Positions 1 through 41,863 of a stretch of DNA of 64,000 nucleotides are shown piece by piece (positions within the stretch are counted from its first letter, which is position 1; each line of letters starts with the position of its first letter). The position numbers and the translations under genes are program-made. This DNA is from Escherichia virus TH22: sequence record MT446396.1; one strand, 5' to 3'. The notes beneath the pieces were generated by a model. It made no database searches, was not told the DNA's origin, and saw only the letters and a list, made by a program, of their open reading frames with translations.

Positions 1-12
1 ATTGAACTCTAA

Positions 13-477
13 ATGATTGTTAACTATATTAAGGGCGATATTGTCGCCCTTTTTCTCGAAGGAAACATCATAGCTCATGGCTGTAACTGCTTCCATACAA
101 TGGGTTCAGGCGTTGCTGGCCAACTGGCAAAGGCTTACCCAAAAATTTTAGAAATGGATAAGACAACAACTGAATACGGTTCCCGAGAAAAACTCGGTGA
201 TATGTCTATTGTTTTTAAACATAAGCCAACTGGATTTGGTATGTGCTATAACCTTTATACCCAGTATGAACCGGGTCCAAATCTGGATTATGGCGCTTTA
301 GTAAATTGTATGATAGAATTAAATCTACAAGCAGAAACCCTTTTGTTTAAACCGGTAATTTATATTCCCAGGATTGGCTGTGGTATTGCAGGTGGTGATT
401 GGGATAAGGTTTCCCGGTTAATTGATATGTTTACTCCTGATATTGATTTGATAGTGGTGGATTATGAGTCAAACTAG
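13..477 (+). CDS. macro domain (ADP-ribose binding/hydrolase-like) protein
   Basis: 154-aa ORF; Gly-rich loops HGCNCFHTMGSGVAGQL and RIGCGIAGGDW resemble macro-domain ADP-ribose binding motifs. Confidence 0.65.
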   Translation: MIVNYIKGDIVALFLEGNIIAHGCNCFHTMGSGVAGQLAKAYPKILEMDKTTTEYGSREKLGDMSIVFKHKPTGFGMCYNLYTQYEPGPNLDYGALVNCMIELNLQAETLLFKPVIYIPRIGCGIAGGDWDKVSRLIDMFTPDIDLIVVDYESN

Positions 478-670
478 TATTCTTAAAAATGCTCACTGTG
501 AAAAGTGTAAATGGCCAGTTGTTTTTGCTTTATGCAACGATGAAATGATATGTGATTTTGATTATTGGTGCTATTGTTCTAATAAAGGGTGTGTGAATCA
601 TGCAGGCGCCGGTTTCTATTCCGGGTTTCAACCGTATCCAGACTTTGTAAAACAAGGTGAACCGAAATGA
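464..670 (+). CDS. hypothetical Cys-rich small protein (possible Zn-binding)
   Basis: 68 aa with multiple Cys pairs; start overlaps upstream stop (coupled). Confidence 0.35.
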   Translation: MSQTSILKNAHCEKCKWPVVFALCNDEMICDFDYWCYCSNKGCVNHAGAGFYSGFQPYPDFVKQGEPK

Positions 671-852
671 GTTTAAGTATTAGTCAGAAAAGTAGATTGT
701 TTGAGCTTATCCATGAGCTTTTGGACGAGCATACGGAAGCGAACGCTTTTTATGATGAATACGGCCCGATAGATGCCGAGCATCAGGAAGAATTTGCTAA
801 TCGGTTTGATGAGAAAGAAAACGAATTAATTGCTTATGTGAATACTCTTTAA
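667..852 (+). CDS. hypothetical acidic small protein
   Basis: 61-aa ORF overlapping neighbours; acidic composition. Confidence 0.35.
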   Translation: MSLSISQKSRLFELIHELLDEHTEANAFYDEYGPIDAEHQEEFANRFDEKENELIAYVNTL

Positions 853-861
853 GAAGGTGAT

Positions 862-1434
862 ATGGCGAGTTTAATTTATCATTACGCGGCAATGAATGCA
901 GGCAAAACAGCTTCATTGCTGACTGCAGCTTATTCCTATAAAGAGCGTGGAATGAGTGTGCTTTTGCTAAAACCTGTTATTGATAATCGGGACTCGGAAT
1001 CTGAAATTAAATCACGTATTGGTATTAGCCAGGAAGCAAACCTGGTAACGGCCGACATGAACCTGTTTGAATTCTATAAATGGGCCGAGTCTCAAAAGGA
1101 TATCCATTGTGTCCTGGTCGATGAAGCTCAATTTTTGTTACCAGAGCAAATTGACCAGTTAGCACGAGTGGTTGATAATTATAATATCCCCGTTATGTGT
1201 TACGGGCTAAGAACAGATTTTCGGGGTCAGTTATTTCCCGGTTCGGCCAGACTTCTGGCTATTTCGGATAAACTGGTTGAATTAAAGGGCGTCTGCCATT
1301 GCGGCCGGAAAGCAACCATGACCGCTCGAGTAATCGACGGTGCTGCTGTAAAGGTCGGCGAGCAAGTATTGGTCGGTGGGAATGAATCGTACGTATCTTT
1401 ATGCAGGAAACATTGGCTCGAATTGACAAGCTGA
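862..1434 (+). CDS. tk: thymidine kinase
   Basis: 190 aa; P-loop AMNAGKTASLL, Zn-ribbon CHCGRKA...C; closely matches T4 Tk. Confidence 0.95.
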   Translation: MASLIYHYAAMNAGKTASLLTAAYSYKERGMSVLLLKPVIDNRDSESEIKSRIGISQEANLVTADMNLFEFYKWAESQKDIHCVLVDEAQFLLPEQIDQLARVVDNYNIPVMCYGLRTDFRGQLFPGSARLLAISDKLVELKGVCHCGRKATMTARVIDGAAVKVGEQVLVGGNESYVSLCRKHWLELTS

Positions 1435-1441
1435 GGTCCTT

Positions 1442-1717
1442 ATGATATATAAGATTTGGACGTATATCTCTATTTTTGTTATTGCTGGAATTGCATTTAT
1501 CCCCACACAAACAGATAGCGAGAGATATGAAAGGGAAATTGAAATAGTAGCAAGCACGTACCATTCTGTTAATAAAGAATGCCCGAATAAAAATGGAATA
1601 AATTTACAAAAAGCACATTATATGCTGACTGTTACTAGCCCAGTGCAAAGAATATGGGTTGATAGACATTTTTCTGATTTATTTGCAATATATTGTTTCA
1701 AGTTTAAAAGATTATAA
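1442..1717 (+). CDS. hypothetical membrane protein
   Basis: 91 aa with N-terminal hydrophobic segment. Confidence 0.35.
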   Translation: MIYKIWTYISIFVIAGIAFIPTQTDSERYEREIEIVASTYHSVNKECPNKNGINLQKAHYMLTVTSPVQRIWVDRHFSDLFAIYCFKFKRL

Positions 1718-2458: not shown

Positions 2459-2462
2459 TTCA

Positions 2463-2492
2463 AAAGGTCTGCCTTCGGGTGGACCTTTTTTC
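2463..2492 (+). terminator. stem-loop + T-run terminator
   Basis: GGTC..TTCGG..GACC hairpin followed by TTTTTT. Confidence 0.5.
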
Positions 2493-2558: not shown

Positions 2559-2762
2559 ATGAGAATTAAAAATATCAAGATTGATGCAGTTAATACTGGT
2601 GATGAGGTTGTTATCTATCTTAATGATTATGCAATCTTTATGGACAGTGCCACTGATGAAGAAGTGGTTGAACTCTTACAGAAAGCTCCATTTGAACTGT
2701 GTGAAGAAGATGCTACCCATCTTTCATCAGCAATTTTCTCATTATCATATGTGGTGGAATAA
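2559..2762 (+). CDS. hypothetical protein
   Basis: 67-aa ORF directly after family-A leader. Confidence 0.35.
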   Translation: MRIKNIKIDAVNTGDEVVIYLNDYAIFMDSATDEEVVELLQKAPFELCEEDATHLSSAIFSLSYVVE

Positions 2763-2998
2763 TGAAACTTACAAATACCATGGTTTCATTGGAATATGAA
2801 ACCAATAATCATATTCTTGAAATTAAGATATTTGATGACGGAAGCATATTTGCTGATTACCGCGGATATAGAATTCGCCTGGAAAAGGAACAGCTTAAAG
2901 ATGTTGAGCTTTTTAAAGAAACATTAAAAAGTTGTGGGTGTAAACTGAAAAATACTCAAGTCCAAGAATTAATTTCTACCATCAACAAATACTGGTGA
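2762..2998 (+). CDS. hypothetical protein
   Basis: 78-aa ORF, coupled. Confidence 0.3.
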   Translation: MKLTNTMVSLEYETNNHILEIKIFDDGSIFADYRGYRIRLEKEQLKDVELFKETLKSCGCKLKNTQVQELISTINKYW

Positions 2999-3002
2999 TA
3001 TT

Positions 3003-3185
3003 ATGTTAACTACTGAACAAATTGAAAAAATTATTAAACTCGCCTGGCATATTGAAAATGCATCTAATGACCTGGCAGTGGAATTATGTGAAGGCTATTC
3101 ATATTCTGGAATAGAACAGTGTAAGCGTGATTTGAATAGTTCTAAAGCTAATTTGGTTGAATATCTGAATGGGTTGAAAGCATAA
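3003..3185 (+). CDS. hypothetical protein
   Basis: 60-aa ORF. Confidence 0.3.
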   Translation: MLTTEQIEKIIKLAWHIENASNDLAVELCEGYSYSGIEQCKRDLNSSKANLVEYLNGLKA

Positions 3186-3442
3186 TGGCTGTTGGATTTG
3201 CAAAAGATGGCGCTGAACAGTTAGAGATGGAAGCGGTTGTACAAGCCGCTATCACCCATGCGAGAGCACAGGTTGCAGTTGAAAGGGAGTCTGCTGAATT
3301 CTGTTTTGACTGCGACGAAAAAATTCCTGAAGCGCGGAGACAAGCGATTAAGGGTGTGATATATTGTGTTGGTTGTCAATCAATGCATGATGAAATTTTT
3401 AAACGTGAGCCACGTAACTGTTGGCATAGGAGCATGAGATGA
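3185..3442 (+). CDS. DksA/TraR-type C4 zinc-finger protein
   Basis: CFDC-x17-CVGC spacing typical of DksA/TraR C4 zinc fingers. Confidence 0.55.
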   Translation: MAVGFAKDGAEQLEMEAVVQAAITHARAQVAVERESAEFCFDCDEKIPEARRQAIKGVIYCVGCQSMHDEIFKREPRNCWHRSMR

Positions 3443-3761: not shown

Positions 3762-4316
3762 ATGATTATTGAAAAATCTGGGTTGTTTGGTGACCTGACT
3801 GCCGATGTAATTGATAATGCAATCGTGCTTAAACAAGAAGATGATACAGTCGTTTTGACCATTCAAGATATTCAGAACCTGTACAAGTTGTCTGTTATTG
3901 ATGCAGAGCAGTATATTCGAACTCATAATCGTGTCTTTAAAATTAACGATGAAGTTGTGGCTTGGTTGTATCGAGGTGAAAATGGCTTTAATCTGGAAAC
4001 CGAATGGGCTTGTTTATCCATTAAAAACCGTTCAGAATTTTTAGAGAAAATTTTTAAACTGTTCCAAGAAGAGTGTGTACCTGAGCTCGAATGGAAAATC
4101 CATGGTTGTGATGCTATTATGCATTCAAGCGAAACCTTTGAAGGTGATGAAGAAGGTGATTATAATACTGAATTCAGTGTCCACCAACATCAAGGTCGCG
4201 ATATGTTATCTATCATCCAGACCCACGATGGTGAAGCTGAAGTAGTATTCACTAAAGACGAATTAAAAGTTCTGGTAAAATACCTGAACACTGTTATCCC
4301 AACTATGAACGCATAA
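3762..4316 (+). CDS. hypothetical strongly acidic protein
   Basis: 184 aa, rich in Asp/Glu. Confidence 0.4.
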   Translation: MIIEKSGLFGDLTADVIDNAIVLKQEDDTVVLTIQDIQNLYKLSVIDAEQYIRTHNRVFKINDEVVAWLYRGENGFNLETEWACLSIKNRSEFLEKIFKLFQEECVPELEWKIHGCDAIMHSSETFEGDEEGDYNTEFSVHQHQGRDMLSIIQTHDGEAEVVFTKDELKVLVKYLNTVIPTMNA

Positions 4317-4325
4317 GGAATTACA

Positions 4326-4778
4326 ATGATTATTAATGAAAACGCCTGGCACGTTAAATTACACGACCGTTTTTATGGCCATTATTCTCGCCCACACTCT
4401 TTGTGTGCTTACTTCTGGAAAATTGTATGGGTCTGCTTTATTTGTTCTGTGCTTGCAGGTAGTACAATCTTCGCCTTAACTGTTGCAGGTGCTGGTGTAT
4501 TGGAGCAGTTCTTTGTATTAAGTACTCCTGTTGGTTTAGGGTTAGGGTTTATTTTAGGACTAGCTACAATGGCTCTTATTTTGGCGGTAGCATTTGGTTT
4601 AATATATGGTCTAATGAATTTATGGGCCTGGTATGATTTACGTAAAGAAGAAAAAGAATGGGAACGAATTAAAGCCAAACGCGAAGGAAAGGAAATTAAA
4701 GAAAACGTTTTCATTCAATATATCAAAGCTCGTAAATCTAAGATGTGTCCGGTAATCCATTTTGAGGCGAAGAAATGA
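4326..4778 (+). CDS. hypothetical integral membrane protein
   Basis: 150 aa; 2-3 hydrophobic helices then charged KEEKEWERIKAKREGKE tail; stop overlaps next start (ATGA). Confidence 0.45.
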   Translation: MIINENAWHVKLHDRFYGHYSRPHSLCAYFWKIVWVCFICSVLAGSTIFALTVAGAGVLEQFFVLSTPVGLGLGFILGLATMALILAVAFGLIYGLMNLWAWYDLRKEEKEWERIKAKREGKEIKENVFIQYIKARKSKMCPVIHFEAKK

Positions 4779-5785
4779 GAACAGTTATGAAGGGATATTT
4801 TGGGTCCCATCTTTATGGAACAAGTACTCCGGAATCTGATGTCGATTTTAAGGAAATCTTTGTTCCACATCCACGTGATATTCTGTTAGGTACGGCAATG
4901 AATCATACAAACTTGAACACGAATAACACGGCATCCAAAAACACTAAAGACGATGTTGACCACGAGCTTTATAGCCTGAAATATTTCTTTAAACTGGCGG
5001 CTGAAGGTGAAACTGTTGCTCTGGACATGATTCACACTCCGGCTAACCTGGTAGTCAAATCCGATTTACCAGATGTATGGAAGTTTATCCAAGACAACCG
5101 TTCACGGTTCTATACGACCAACATGAAAGCATATTTGGGGTACGTCCGTAAGCAAGCTTCAAAATATGGTGTTAAAGGTTCTAGACTGGCTGCTTTACGT
5201 GGTGTACTGGCAATTGTTAACCAGATTCCTGAACAGTGGGTTGACTACCAAGAAGATGGTTCGACTAAACAACGTCGCACTAAAGTTGAAGATATTAAGC
5301 ATCGTCTCCCAGAGAATGAATTCTGTGAATGGGTATTCCATAACCATGAGAAAACCGGTCCTCAAACGTTTTATACTGTTCTCGGTCGCAAATACCAAAC
5401 TACTTTGTCATTAATCGAGCTTAAGCAATCTCTGAATAAACTTGATGCCGAATATGGTGAACGCGCTCGTAAGGCCGAAGCTAACGAAGGTATTGACTGG
5501 AAAGCTCTGAGCCACGCTTATCGTGCTGGATATCAGTTGAAGGAAATTTATATGACCGGTGACCTTCAATATCCTTTACGAACAGCCCCATTTATCCTTG
5601 AAATCAAACAAGGGCTACATGCTTTTAAAGATGTACAAGCTGAACTTGAAGCAATCGTCGATGAAGTCGAAACCAATGCCATCTGGGCGGCCAAGAACGG
5701 CATGCCCGATAAGGTAGACATGAAGTTCTGGGACAAGTTTGTTGAAGAGGTATATCTTGACAACCACAATTCCTATTATCGTTAA
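4775..5785 (+). CDS. Pol-beta superfamily nucleotidyltransferase (family unresolved)
   Basis: 336 aa; N-terminal GSHLYGTSTPESDVDF (GS...SDxD) nucleotidyltransferase signature, further Asp in VALDMIH; long helical C-terminal region. Confidence 0.6.
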   Translation: MRTVMKGYFGSHLYGTSTPESDVDFKEIFVPHPRDILLGTAMNHTNLNTNNTASKNTKDDVDHELYSLKYFFKLAAEGETVALDMIHTPANLVVKSDLPDVWKFIQDNRSRFYTTNMKAYLGYVRKQASKYGVKGSRLAALRGVLAIVNQIPEQWVDYQEDGSTKQRRTKVEDIKHRLPENEFCEWVFHNHEKTGPQTFYTVLGRKYQTTLSLIELKQSLNKLDAEYGERARKAEANEGIDWKALSHAYRAGYQLKEIYMTGDLQYPLRTAPFILEIKQGLHAFKDVQAELEAIVDEVETNAIWAAKNGMPDKVDMKFWDKFVEEVYLDNHNSYYR

Positions 5786-40643: not shown

Positions 40644-41204
40644 ATGAACATCATCAAATCTGATACCGAACCCAACCAGTTAAAATTTAGTGAAATGGAG
40701 ATAGCTTCATTATTTGAATGCCGTACATCAAAGGTTGATAAGACCTTGCATTCAAATGTCAACTCAATCATCAAGTCAAGGTTGTCTATACCCGATACAG
40801 TCTTGTGGCGCGGGGTAACCCAGCAAGAGATTGATTTGTTAGATGAAGCAAAAGAATCAATGCAACCTTTTGAATTTGGACGGATAACCTCCTTTACAGA
40901 AGACTATGGTATTGCCAGGGATTTTGCTGCAATGGAATATGTGACTAGGACTATCGTCAGATTGAATCAGACCAAAGCTTTTTGTTACCATGATGCGATG
41001 CGCAAAATCGCACTTGATGTTCCACTTGAATTCTTCAATACAGCTTCTGGTTCCGCACGGGCAGCTACATTAAGGCGTGAAGAATACATGGACATGATTG
41101 ATTCCGAGCTTGAATGGTTTGTTCCAGTTGACCAGAAATTCGTGGTAGTTGATGCTGGATTTATTGATGATTATTATGTTCTTGACTGTGTACAAGAGCA
41201 ATAA
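40644..41204 (+). CDS. modB: ADP-ribosyltransferase, ModB-like (R-S-E class)
   Basis: 186 aa; R in LWRG, S-x-T in SFT, E-x-E in ELEWFVP; upstream paralog as modB is in T4. Confidence 0.65.
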   Translation: MNIIKSDTEPNQLKFSEMEIASLFECRTSKVDKTLHSNVNSIIKSRLSIPDTVLWRGVTQQEIDLLDEAKESMQPFEFGRITSFTEDYGIARDFAAMEYVTRTIVRLNQTKAFCYHDAMRKIALDVPLEFFNTASGSARAATLRREEYMDMIDSELEWFVPVDQKFVVVDAGFIDDYYVLDCVQEQ

Positions 41205-41248
41205 GACACGTTAAGATGTTCCTATCAACTACTGATGAGGATAATAAA
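41182..41248 (+). promoter_or_regulatory. early promoter with family-A leader
   Basis: TTGACTGTGTACA ... CCTATCAACTACTGATGAGG. Confidence 0.45.
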
Positions 41249-41863
41249 ATGCTGTACACTGATGACGTTTTGAATGGAATTATTGACACTGCCGCTTCTA
41301 GTGAGTCTTTTCGTAACCAATGCCAAGCGGAGATTGATGCTCTTTATACAGATAATGAGCAATCAGTACTCTGGCAGTGTATGGAAAATAAACCTGACCT
41401 GATTCAAGAAGACTTGTCCAGGATTATCCGCAACAATCTGAATACTGCACCACCCCCGGCGTTGTTCCGTGGTATATCAAAGAAAACTATGGAATACCTG
41501 GAAGATTTAAGATATGTTGGTGCAACGATTGAATTCAATCGTGTAATGAGTTTTTCCAGGGACTGGCAGGTTGCAAGAAATTTCGCATCATACAGTTTCT
41601 ATGGAACAAGGAATATTTTCTGCATAAACAATGCACCATATGCGTATAACTATCAGGAAGCAATCTTCAAAATGATTTGTGGTGCTCCTCCTGAAGAGTT
41701 CAATGGTGCATATCCAGAAGCAACCAGGAAGTCAAACTTGCACCTGGTTAATGATGAAGATGAGTTTATGTTTCCCGCTGGGACTACGCTCCGCGTAGAC
41801 TTGATTGAAACACACCCATTGAATAACCTGTATACTGTTTGGCATTTGACTGTTTTGAACTAA
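41249..41863 (+). CDS. modA: ADP-ribosyltransferase, ModA-like (R-S-E class)
   Basis: 204 aa; LFRG, SFS, EDEFMFP; paralog of the upstream gene. Confidence 0.65.
   Translation: MLYTDDVLNGIIDTAASSESFRNQCQAEIDALYTDNEQSVLWQCMENKPDLIQEDLSRIIRNNLNTAPPPALFRGISKKTMEYLEDLRYVGATIEFNRVMSFSRDWQVARNFASYSFYGTRNIFCINNAPYAYNYQEAIFKMICGAPPEEFNGAYPEATRKSNLHLVNDEDEFMFPAGTTLRVDLIETHPLNNLYTVWHLTVLN

What the first reader, a model, noticed from the sequence alone, without database searches (positions are those of the whole stretch)
13..852. Macro-domain operon upstream of tk in a genome with two ADP-ribosyltransferases
ORF 13..477 has the paired Gly-rich loops of a macro domain (ADP-ribose binding/hydrolysis) and is coupled to a Cys-rich 68-aa protein and a small acidic protein before tk. 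The phage also encodes two R-S-E class ADP-ribosyltransferases (40644..41863). A phage macro domain could erase ADP-ribose marks, either moderating its own Mod enzymes or countering host ADP-ribosylating defences such as DarT, whose cognate antitoxin DarG is itself a macro domain.
Basis: partly seen in the sequence, partly recalled or inferred. Interest (0 to 1): 0.65.

Follow-up and report, generated by a model that had tools for sequence, protein, structure and literature searches.

The report
T4 Tk.4/AdfM anti-DarT2 macrodomain orthologue

Summary
ORF 13..477 encodes a 154-aa macro domain: Pfam PF01661 scores above its cutoff, and an AlphaFold model (pLDDT 94.9) matches TARG1, BT1257, Poa1p and DarG. 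A 7-Cys zinc-binding protein, a small acidic protein and tk follow it.

The window is a T4-like Gaprivervirus, 99.7% identical to phage UPEC01. The three genes are the orthologues of T4 tk.4, tk.3 and tk.2. The macro protein is 93.5% identical to T4 Tk.4.

The HIDEN-SEQ preprint (bioRxiv 10.1101/2025.11.20.689424) found tk.4 as the single T4 gene needed on a DarTG2 host. A clean knockout became sensitive, and the gene was renamed adfM.

My added detail is that Tk.4 is not a lysine-type DarG look-alike. The position of the catalytic lysine of DarG, TARG1 and PhiKZ AdfM holds an invariant Gln84, as in SCO6735 and BT1257. SCO6735 is a proven thymidine-ADP-ribose DNA hydrolase.

The "operon" is a slice of a longer T4 transcription unit (vs through mobD.7). 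The two small genes occur only in enterobacterial T4-like phages and were not hits in the DarTG2 screen. A link to ModA/ModB is unsupported.

Novelty: already known. Interest: low.

The parts
1..16 (+). 3' end of the upstream vs gene (valyl-tRNA synthetase modifier). Its TGA stop (14-16) overlaps the macro ATG (13-15).
   Evidence: Sequence. UPEC01 and VR7 annotations place the end of vs at this position.
13..477 (+). tk.4 / adfM orthologue: a 154-aa single-domain macrodomain of the ALC1-like class, Gln-type (SCO6735/BT1257-like). Key residues are D9, H22, N25, G31/G33, Q84, G122/G124 and W130.
   Evidence: Pfam Macro. PHROG 335. AF2 pLDDT 94.9. Foldseek matches to TARG1, BT1257, Poa1p and DarG. 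93.5% identity to T4 Tk.4. Residue mapping.
464..670 (+). tk.3-like 68-aa protein with 7 Cys, Pfam PF23895 Phage_zn_bind; function unknown.
   Evidence: VR7 annotates the same position as tk.3. Found in 777 phage records, all enterobacterial T4-likes.
667..852 (+). tk.2-like 61-aa acidic protein (pI 4.3), Pfam DUF7438 PF24219; function unknown.
   Evidence: VR7 annotates the same position as tk.2. Found in 741 phage records.
862..1434 (+). tk, thymidine kinase.
   Evidence: PF00265 E=4.5e-57. PHROG 592.
2462..2489 (+). First terminator-like hairpin downstream (12-bp stem plus T run). It is the likely 3' limit of the transcription unit that contains the macro gene.
   Evidence: This is a consensus scan only.
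40644..41863 (+). Context only: a tandem pair of ModA/ModB-like ADP-ribosyltransferases (186 aa and 215 aa). They are not linked to the macro gene by position or by any test made here.
   Evidence: PHROG 832 'RNA polymerase ADP-ribosylase'. R/S/ExE motifs in the translations. No Pfam hit above cutoff.

Best explanation
ORF 13..477 is the orthologue of phage T4 tk.4 (adfM), a stand-alone macrodomain that protects the phage from the host DarTG2 toxin-antitoxin defence. DarT2 ADP-ribosylates thymidines in single-stranded phage DNA and blocks replication. The phage protein most likely binds the ADP-ribose through its two Gly-rich loops and hydrolyses the thymine-N3-ribose bond, restoring the DNA.

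It would do this by the lysine-independent mechanism described for Streptomyces SCO6735. In that mechanism Gln (here Q84), held by Asn (here N25), positions the distal ribose, and a backbone-held water starts catalysis.

What is shown here: fold, family, orthology, synteny and conservation of the catalytic positions. What is shown by others for the T4 orthologue: genetic requirement against DarTG2. What is inferred: the enzymatic step for Tk.4 itself, and that this particular phage meets DarTG2 hosts.

The tk.3-like and tk.2-like neighbours are syntenic small T4-like genes of unknown function, not parts of the mechanism.
For: Macro identity:
- Pfam hit above cutoff.
- AF2 pLDDT 94.9, pTM 0.89.
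- Foldseek top hits TARG1 (TM 0.74-0.81), BT1257, Poa1p and the DarG macrodomains.
- PDB profile search: BT1257 3e-20, TARG1 1.5e-17, SCO6735 1e-15, Mtb DarG 7.5e-12.

Orthology:
- The window is 99.7% identical to UPEC01 and about 97-98% identical to the VR7 and VR20 Gapriverviruses.
- VR7 labels the same genes vs, tk.4, tk.3, tk.2 and tk.
- The protein is 144/154 identical to the ORF between vs and tk in the T4 derivative T4_ev240.

Function of the T4 orthologue:
- tk.4 was the single significant hit on a DarTG2 host, and the knockout became sensitised (10.1101/2025.11.20.689424).

Mechanism:
- In profile and MAFFT alignments Q84 occupies the column of TARG1 K84, DarG K80 and the PhiKZ AdfM 'FPTK' lysine. 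N25 aligns with SCO6735 N27, DarG N22 and PhiKZ N23. G124 aligns with SCO6735 G128. A126 sits where TARG1 has D125.
- SCO6735 cleaves thymidine-linked ADPr from DNA. Its Q85A mutant is dead, N27S is nearly dead and G128E is reduced (PMC9411070).
- Across the window protein and 119 homologues down to about 39% identity, Q84 is 120/120, and N25, H22 and G124 are each 118/118 of ungapped rows.
- A different phage macrodomain, PhiKZ gp104, removes DarT2-made ADPr from DNA in vitro (PMC13309987). This shows the strategy works in phages.
Against: - No biochemical assay of any Tk.4-family protein was found. The preprint itself says enzymatic removal 'seems likely'.
- SCO6735 also inhibits DarT by direct interaction when catalytically dead, so protection could be partly non-enzymatic.
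- The SCO6735 mobile loop with DNA-binding K89/K94 is 5 residues shorter here and lacks those lysines, and K34 is S32. DNA handling may therefore differ.
- The genetic evidence is a preprint on T4, not on this phage.
- About 40%-identical homologues sit in RNA-repair neighbourhoods, which hints at other or additional substrates in the family.
Confidence: 0.8

Rival explanations
1. The protein protects against DarT2 mainly without catalysis. It would bind and inhibit the DarT2 toxin, or shield ADP-ribosylated DNA, with the macro fold serving as a binding module.
For: Catalytically dead SCO6735 Q85A inhibits DarT in vitro, more strongly than dead DarG or TARG1 (PMC9411070). The T4 data are genetic only.
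Against: Every position tied to catalysis in SCO6735 is invariant across the window protein and 119 homologues. That pattern is expected for an enzyme rather than a binder. The protein has no second, DarT-binding domain like DarG2 (154 aa, single domain). Toxin-specific binding would be a narrow defence for a gene found in 2768 phage records on many hosts.
Confidence: 0.1
2. The protein is a small-molecule ADP-ribose-derivative hydrolase. Examples are ADP-ribose-1''-phosphate phosphatase as in yeast Poa1p, O-acetyl-ADP-ribose deacetylase, or a degrader of ADPr-derived immune signals. It would serve RNA repair or NAD metabolism, and the DarTG2 phenotype would be secondary.
For: PHROG 335 and many GenBank records call it 'phosphatase'. 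Poa1p matches at E=1e-9 with the single sequence and 1.9e-15 with the profile, and shares the H-x-C-N-C motif. Homologues at about 40% identity lie next to an AAA_33 kinase, a T4 Rnl1-type RNA ligase and PDDEXK genes. Iyer, Aravind and colleagues argued that phage Macro domains may prefer soluble ADPr derivatives (PMC9503650).
Against: The only experimental phenotype for the T4 orthologue is loss of resistance to DarTG2, a DNA-thymidine ADP-ribosylating system. The nearest full-length characterised relatives by sequence are SCO6735 and BT1257, and SCO6735 acts on DNA. 'Phosphatase' is an annotation label, not a test. The two roles are not mutually exclusive.
Confidence: 0.07
3. The macro domain moderates the phage's own ADP-ribosyltransferases (Alt, ModA, ModB) by erasing their marks on host proteins or RNA.
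For: The genome does carry a ModA/ModB-like pair. Arginine-specific macrodomains exist in principle; Legionella MavL is cited in the reference list seen. SCO6735 and TARG1 also act on protein and RNA-uracil ADPr.
Against: There is no positional link, since the ARTs lie 40 kb away. The macro family occurs in 2768 phage records over many groups, including Pseudomonas, Vibrio, Campylobacter and Lysinibacillus phages. That is far beyond the T4-like phages, the only group known to me to carry Alt/Mod (not tested here). The hydrolytic macro classes reviewed in PMC7050489 act on Asp/Glu esters, OAADPr and nucleic-acid ends, with Arg-ADPr assigned to ARH1. The preprint text I read reports the tk.4 knockout defect in the presence of DarTG2; growth without the defence system was not checked here.
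Confidence: 0.03

Closest known systems
Phage T4 Tk.4 = AdfM (anti-DarT factor Macrodomain), bioRxiv 10.1101/2025.11.20.689424
   Same: 93.5% amino-acid identity over the full length. Same position between vs and tk.3/tk. Same single-domain size.
   Different: The window protein is 154 aa against 159 aa (the C-terminal tail differs). In this Gaprivervirus only two small ORFs separate it from tk, against five in T4_ev240. Function in this phage was not tested.
Streptomyces coelicolor SCO6735 (PDB 5E3B) and Bacteroides BT1257 (PDB 2FG1/2AFC): Gln-type ALC1-like macrodomains
   Same: H-x-C-N motif, Gln at the TARG1-K84/DarG-K80 position, and the P-R-I-G-C-G-[IL]-A-G-G-x-W loop. They are the best sequence hits in the PDB. 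SCO6735 hydrolyses thymidine-linked ADPr on DNA and needs Q85, N27 and G128.
   Different: Only 26-28% identity. The mobile loop after the Gln is about 5 residues shorter and lacks SCO6735 K89/K94. K34 is Ser here. These are cellular proteins, not phage proteins.
DarG2 antitoxin macrodomain (T. aquaticus 5M31/5M3E, M. tuberculosis 5M3I) and PhiKZ gp104 'AdfM' (PMC13309987)
   Same: Same fold and class. Same conserved Asn (N25 = DarG N22 = PhiKZ N23). Same biological target system, DarT2. PhiKZ AdfM is also a stand-alone phage macrodomain.
   Different: The catalytic Lys of the 'FPTK' motif is Gln here. There is no DarT-binding C-terminal domain and no adjacent darT gene. PhiKZ gp104 matches DarG at E=9e-25, while the window protein matches PhiKZ gp104 only at profile level (96.7% hhalign probability, 23% identity). 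This suggests two independent phage recruitments that share one name.
Human TARG1/OARD1 (PDB 4J5S)
   Same: Best structural match (TM 0.74-0.81). TARG1 also removes thymidine-linked ADPr from DNA (title and abstract of PMC8501950).
   Different: The catalytic dyad K84/D125 is replaced by Q84/A126.
Yeast Poa1p ADP-ribose-1''-phosphate phosphatase (PDB 6LFQ)
   Same: Shared N-terminal motif I-x-Y-[IV]-K-G-[DN] ... H-x-C-N-C. Good fold match.
   Different: With the single sequence only the N-terminal half aligns well. Its substrate is a small molecule, and no phosphatase activity has been shown for the phage family.

Membership tests
Macro domain (Pfam PF01661) | Profile score above Pfam's gathering cutoff over the whole domain | tested here: met
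   33.5 bits against a cutoff of 22, E=4.4e-8, profile positions 2-117 of 118.
Macro domain (Pfam PF01661) | Three-layer alpha/beta/alpha macro fold | tested here: met
   AF2 model pLDDT 94.9. 182 PDB chains at E<=1e-3; all 50 listed are macrodomains or engineered proteins built on macro-like scaffolds. Top TM-scores 0.74-0.81.
Macro domain (Pfam PF01661) | ADP-ribose-binding elements: adenine-contacting Asp, conserved Asn, and two Gly-rich loops | tested here: met
   D9, N25, MGSGVAG (30-36) and IGCGIAGG (121-128) align with the same elements of TARG1, DarG and SCO6735. Conserved in the window protein and 119 homologues. Ligand binding itself was not tested.
T4 Tk.4 / AdfM orthologous group | High full-length identity to T4 Tk.4 | tested here: met
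   144/154 identical, E=6e-113.
T4 Tk.4 / AdfM orthologous group | Conserved position between vs and tk.3/tk | tested here: met
T4 Tk.4 / AdfM orthologous group | Confers resistance to DarTG2 | not testable with these tools
   Shown for T4 only, by transposon screen and clean knockout.
SCO6735/BT1257-type (Gln-type) ALC1-like macrodomain | Gln in place of the TARG1 K84 / DarG K80 lysine, and no TARG1 D125 | tested here: met
   Q84 and A126. Q is 120/120 in the family alignment.
SCO6735/BT1257-type (Gln-type) ALC1-like macrodomain | Asn27 and Gly128 equivalents required for T-ADPr hydrolysis | tested here: met
   N25 and G124, each 118/118. Mutant data for SCO6735 are in PMC9411070.
SCO6735/BT1257-type (Gln-type) ALC1-like macrodomain | Extended mobile loop with DNA-binding Lys89/Lys94 | tested here: not met
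   The loop after Q84 is about 5 residues shorter and has no Lys (QYEPGPNLDY against QHGMKTGSKGAPVRY).
SCO6735/BT1257-type (Gln-type) ALC1-like macrodomain | Hydrolysis of thymidine-linked ADP-ribose on ssDNA | not testable with these tools
   Needs an enzyme assay.
DarG2 antitoxin (Lys-type, including PhiKZ gp104 AdfM) | Catalytic lysine in the F-P-T-K motif | tested here: not met
   Gln84 is in that column.
DarG2 antitoxin (Lys-type, including PhiKZ gp104 AdfM) | Second DarT-interacting domain and an adjacent darT gene | tested here: not met
   The protein is a 154-aa single domain. Its neighbours are vs and tk.3.
Poa1p-like ADP-ribose-1''-phosphate phosphatase | Sequence and fold similarity to Poa1p, including His23 | tested here: inconclusive
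   Single-sequence match mainly over residues 3-73 (E about 1e-9). Profile match at 1.9e-15. H22 is conserved, but H22 is also shared with SCO6735, BT1257 and TARG1.
Poa1p-like ADP-ribose-1''-phosphate phosphatase | Appr-1''-p phosphatase activity | not testable with these tools
   The 'phosphatase' label in PHROG 335 and RefSeq is annotation only.

The most novel reading that the evidence does not exclude
The T4-type AdfM may be a broad-spectrum pyrimidine-base ADP-ribose eraser, acting on thymine in ssDNA, uracil in RNA, and perhaps acidic protein residues. This is the range now shown for SCO6735. If so, it would disarm more than DarT2, for example RNA-targeting ADP-ribosyltransferase defences. 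It would also represent a second, mechanistically distinct (Gln-type, lysine-free) phage solution that evolved independently of the DarG-like PhiKZ AdfM. A weaker extension is that the always-adjacent Tk.3 zinc protein or the Tk.2 acidic protein modulates it.
Probability: 0.2. Interest if true: 0.5.

Novelty: already known. Interest (0 to 1): 0.2.

Why it matters
The finding is a correct blind prediction of a phage counter-defence: a macro domain erasing DarT-made ADP-ribose on DNA. The T4 orthologue has since been shown genetically to do this job, so the window adds no new kind of system.

The residual value is mechanistic. The T4-type protein lacks the DarG/TARG1 catalytic lysine and matches the Gln-type SCO6735 enzymes. 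Two different phage proteins now called 'AdfM' (T4 Tk.4 and PhiKZ gp104) are therefore likely independent recruitments with different chemistry. That is worth a sentence in annotation and a simple enzyme assay. Many database records still label this gene 'phosphatase' or 'hypothetical protein', and those labels could be updated.

Tried and rejected
- I looked for a functional tie between the macro gene and its two small neighbours. tblastn of each against 50,697 phage records gave 777 and 741 records, all enterobacterial T4-likes, against 2768 for the macro. Neighbourhoods of three distant macro homologues (L003-L006) contain neither small family. T4 interleaves other ORFs. I rejected the idea of a three-gene module.
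- I looked for a dedicated promoter. The sigma-70-like scan gave no more sites than shuffles, both in the window start and in the 4 kb upstream taken from UPEC01. One MotA-box-like TTTGCTTTA lies inside tk.3. No conclusion is possible from these.
- Pfam did not recognise the ModA/ModB-like proteins above cutoff. PHROGs did.
- The hhalign alignment of the family profile to the single PhiKZ gp104 sequence was shifted by two residues around the catalytic strand. I did not rely on it. I used HMM alignments to two DarG structures and TARG1, plus a MAFFT L-INS-i alignment, which agree with one another.
- tRNA and Rfam scans of the whole window found nothing.
- The CmdTAC paper was checked for a macro-domain link to T4 and contains none.
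- Not run, because they were not needed for the verdict: the 1.84-billion-protein representative search, a second structure prediction (for Tk.3 or Tk.2), and scans of the metagenome and genome collections.

Full report
**What is there.** The first 1.5 kb of the window carries four tightly packed + strand ORFs.
- 13..477 encodes 154 aa.
- 464..670 encodes 68 aa and overlaps the first ORF by 14 nt.
- 667..852 encodes 61 aa and starts in an ATGA overlap.
- 862..1434 encodes 190 aa and starts 9 nt after the previous stop.

Pfam assigns them, in order, to Macro (PF01661, E=4.4e-8, 33.5 bits against a cutoff of 22), Phage_zn_bind (PF23895, 1.3e-28), DUF7438 (PF24219, 6e-16) and thymidine kinase (PF00265, 4.5e-57). 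PHROGs agrees; it labels the macro family PHROG 335 'phosphatase'. The 68-aa protein has 7 Cys. The 61-aa protein has pI 4.3.

**Where it comes from.** The window is a T4-like phage. Its first 3 kb are 99.7% identical to Escherichia phage UPEC01 (genus Gaprivervirus) and about 97-98% identical to the VR7 and VR20 Gapriverviruses.

In VR7 the same genes are annotated vs, tk.4, tk.3, tk.2, tk, an ORF, rI and mobD.7. The window simply begins at the last codons of vs, whose TGA overlaps the macro ATG (ATGA at 13-16). No terminator-like hairpin appears until 2462..2489. Promoter-like sites are no more frequent than in shuffled sequence, either here or in the 4 kb upstream taken from UPEC01.

The 'macro-domain operon' is therefore a slice of a longer T4-type transcription unit, not a self-contained three-gene module.

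**The macro domain is real and intact.** An AlphaFold2 model built on 42 family members has mean pLDDT 94.9 and pTM 0.89. Foldseek against the PDB returns TARG1/OARD1 first (TM 0.74-0.81). Then come Bacteroides BT1257, yeast Poa1p, the DarG macrodomains of T. aquaticus, M. tuberculosis and Thermosipho, and then viral macrodomains.

By sequence profile the order is BT1257 (3e-20), TARG1 (1.5e-17), Streptomyces SCO6735 (1e-15), Poa1p (1.9e-15) and Mtb DarG (7.5e-12). This places the protein in the ALC1-like class of macrodomains, as defined in PMC7050489.

**It is T4 Tk.4, and Tk.4 already has a function.** The protein is 144/154 identical to the ORF between vs and tk in the T4 derivative T4_ev240. 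Homologues occur in 2768 of 50,697 phage records. These include T4-likes and many other groups on Escherichia, Klebsiella, Salmonella, Pseudomonas, Vibrio, Acinetobacter and Aeromonas, and even Campylobacter and Lysinibacillus. This fits the survey finding that about 41% of myoviruses encode a Macro domain (PMC9503650).

The HIDEN-SEQ preprint (bioRxiv 10.1101/2025.11.20.689424, November 2025) infected a DarTG2-expressing E. coli with a T4 transposon library. It found tk.4 as the single significant hit, showed that a clean knockout is DarTG2-sensitive, and renamed the gene adfM, for anti-DarT factor Macrodomain. Enzymatic removal of ADP-ribose from DNA is stated there as likely, not demonstrated.

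**A refinement on mechanism.** The preprint compares Tk.4 with Mtb DarG. A second phage protein also named AdfM, PhiKZ gp104, is truly DarG-like. It matches Mtb DarG at 9e-25 and keeps the F-P-T-K motif. It removes DarT2-made ADP-ribose from an oligonucleotide in vitro, and its N23A mutant is weakened (PMC13309987).

The Tk.4 family differs at the catalytic column. Three kinds of alignment agree on the following mapping: HMM alignments of the family profile to TARG1 and to two DarG structures, and a MAFFT L-INS-i alignment.
- Window Q84 sits in the column of TARG1 K84, DarG K80 and the PhiKZ lysine.
- A126 sits where TARG1 has D125.
- N25 aligns with DarG N22, PhiKZ N23 and SCO6735 N27.
- The motifs H-x-C-N, [TG]-Q and P-R-I-G-C-G-[IL]-A-G-G-x-W are shared specifically with SCO6735 and BT1257.

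SCO6735 lacks both TARG1 catalytic residues, yet it efficiently cleaves thymidine-linked ADP-ribose from DNA. Its Q85A mutant is dead, N27S is nearly dead and G128E is reduced. The proposed mechanism uses Gln to position the distal ribose and a backbone-held water (PMC9411070).

All three positions are kept here (Q84, N25, G124). Across the window protein and 119 homologues down to about 39% identity, Q84 is 120/120, and N25, H22 and G124 are each 118/118 of ungapped rows.

My best reading is that Tk.4/AdfM is a Gln-type, SCO6735-like thymidine-ADP-ribose hydrolase, recruited by phages independently of the Lys-type PhiKZ AdfM. Two caveats apply:
- The SCO6735 mobile loop with DNA-binding lysines is about 5 residues shorter here.
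- Catalytically dead SCO6735 can also inhibit DarT by direct interaction, so a non-enzymatic contribution is not excluded.

**The neighbours.** The zinc-binding (tk.3-like) and acidic (tk.2-like) proteins occur in 777 and 741 phage records, all enterobacterial T4-likes. In T4_ev240 three further small ORFs are interleaved among tk.4, these two genes and tk. Distant macro homologues have quite different neighbours: an AAA_33 kinase, an Rnl1-type RNA ligase and PDDEXK in two contigs, and dUTPase and ribonucleotide reductase in another. In the DarTG2 screen only tk.4 was a hit. I therefore treat the two small genes as syntenic passengers of unknown function.

**The ADP-ribosyltransferases.** ORFs 40644..41204 and 41216..41863 match PHROG 832 'RNA polymerase ADP-ribosylase' and show R / S / E-x-E motifs. 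They are preceded by an Mrh-like gene (PF24070), as in T4 by my recollection of the T4 map. They are the ModA/ModB-like pair.

Nothing links them to the macro gene. They lie 40 kb away. The macro family is far more widespread than T4-like phages. The hydrolytic macro classes act on Asp/Glu esters, O-acetyl-ADPr and nucleic acids, while Arg-ADPr is assigned to ARH1 in the review read here. An arginine-specific macrodomain, Legionella MavL, does exist as a separate family (reference seen), so this idea is unlikely rather than impossible.

**Rivals.** Three alternatives remain:
- non-catalytic DarT2 inhibition (0.1);
- a small-molecule ADPr-derivative hydrolase of the Poa1p type, supported only by annotation labels, partial similarity and the RNA-repair neighbourhood of distant homologues (0.07);
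- erasing the phage's own Alt/Mod marks (0.03).

**Verdict.** This is a well-conserved, already named anti-defence gene of T4-like phages, so novelty is 'already known' and interest is low. The points worth passing on are the Gln-for-Lys difference from DarG and PhiKZ AdfM, and the outdated 'phosphatase' or 'hypothetical' labels in many records.

Noticed in passing
L003 10..2957 and L004 317..2998 (metagenomic phage contigs): Macro homologues about 40% identical to the window protein lie directly downstream of an AAA_33 (Pnk-like) kinase, a T4 Rnl1-type RNA ligase and a PDDEXK nuclease gene. This is an RNA-repair-type neighbourhood, which suggests that some family members may process RNA-repair by-products or RNA-linked ADPr.
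   Followed up: partly
window 1442..1717 (+): A 91-aa ORF with a hydrophobic N-terminus sits between tk and rI and has no Pfam hit. UPEC01 labels it 'endoribonuclease', while VR7 says 'similar to JS98 ORF099c'. It has no tblastn match in the corresponding T4_ev240 region.
   Followed up: partly
window 3762..4316 and the mobD.x ORFs at about 2559..3200 (UPEC01 record MW233709): The closest GenBank record carries product names that seem to be propagated from gene-name prefixes. 'Thymidine kinase' is applied to a protein that is Pfam T4_y05I_N/C. 'Molybdopterin-guanine dinucleotide biosynthesis protein MobD' is applied to small mobD.x ORFs. 'Endoribonuclease' and 'valyl-tRNA synthetase modifier' are applied to unrelated small ORFs.
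   Followed up: partly
window 4775..5785 (+): A 336-aa protein with an RlaP hit (PF10127, RNA repair pathway DNA polymerase beta family nucleotidyltransferase, E=1.2e-10).
   Followed up: no
window 524..532 (+): A MotA-box-like TTTGCTTTA lies inside the tk.3-like ORF and could be a middle-promoter element feeding tk. There are 5 matches in 11 kb of L001 against 1.9 expected, and this is the only one on the coding strand.
   Followed up: no
window 667..852 (+): The DUF7438 acidic protein has a sub-threshold hit to PF09720 Unstab_antitox (putative addiction-module component), E=0.006, 17 bits against a cutoff of 23.3.
   Followed up: no
GenBank OL964745.1 53148..53544 (hit H41): A record named 'Escherichia phage T4' (159,752 bp) carries a macro gene only 54% identical to the window protein, split into two pieces and annotated as two macro-domain CDSs. 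It is either not T4 proper or has a disrupted tk.4.
   Followed up: no
window 2462..2489 (+): A strong terminator-like hairpin (12-bp stem, GC-rich core, T run) lies right after the mobD.7-like ORF (DUF5856). It is the first such site downstream of the macro gene.
   Followed up: no
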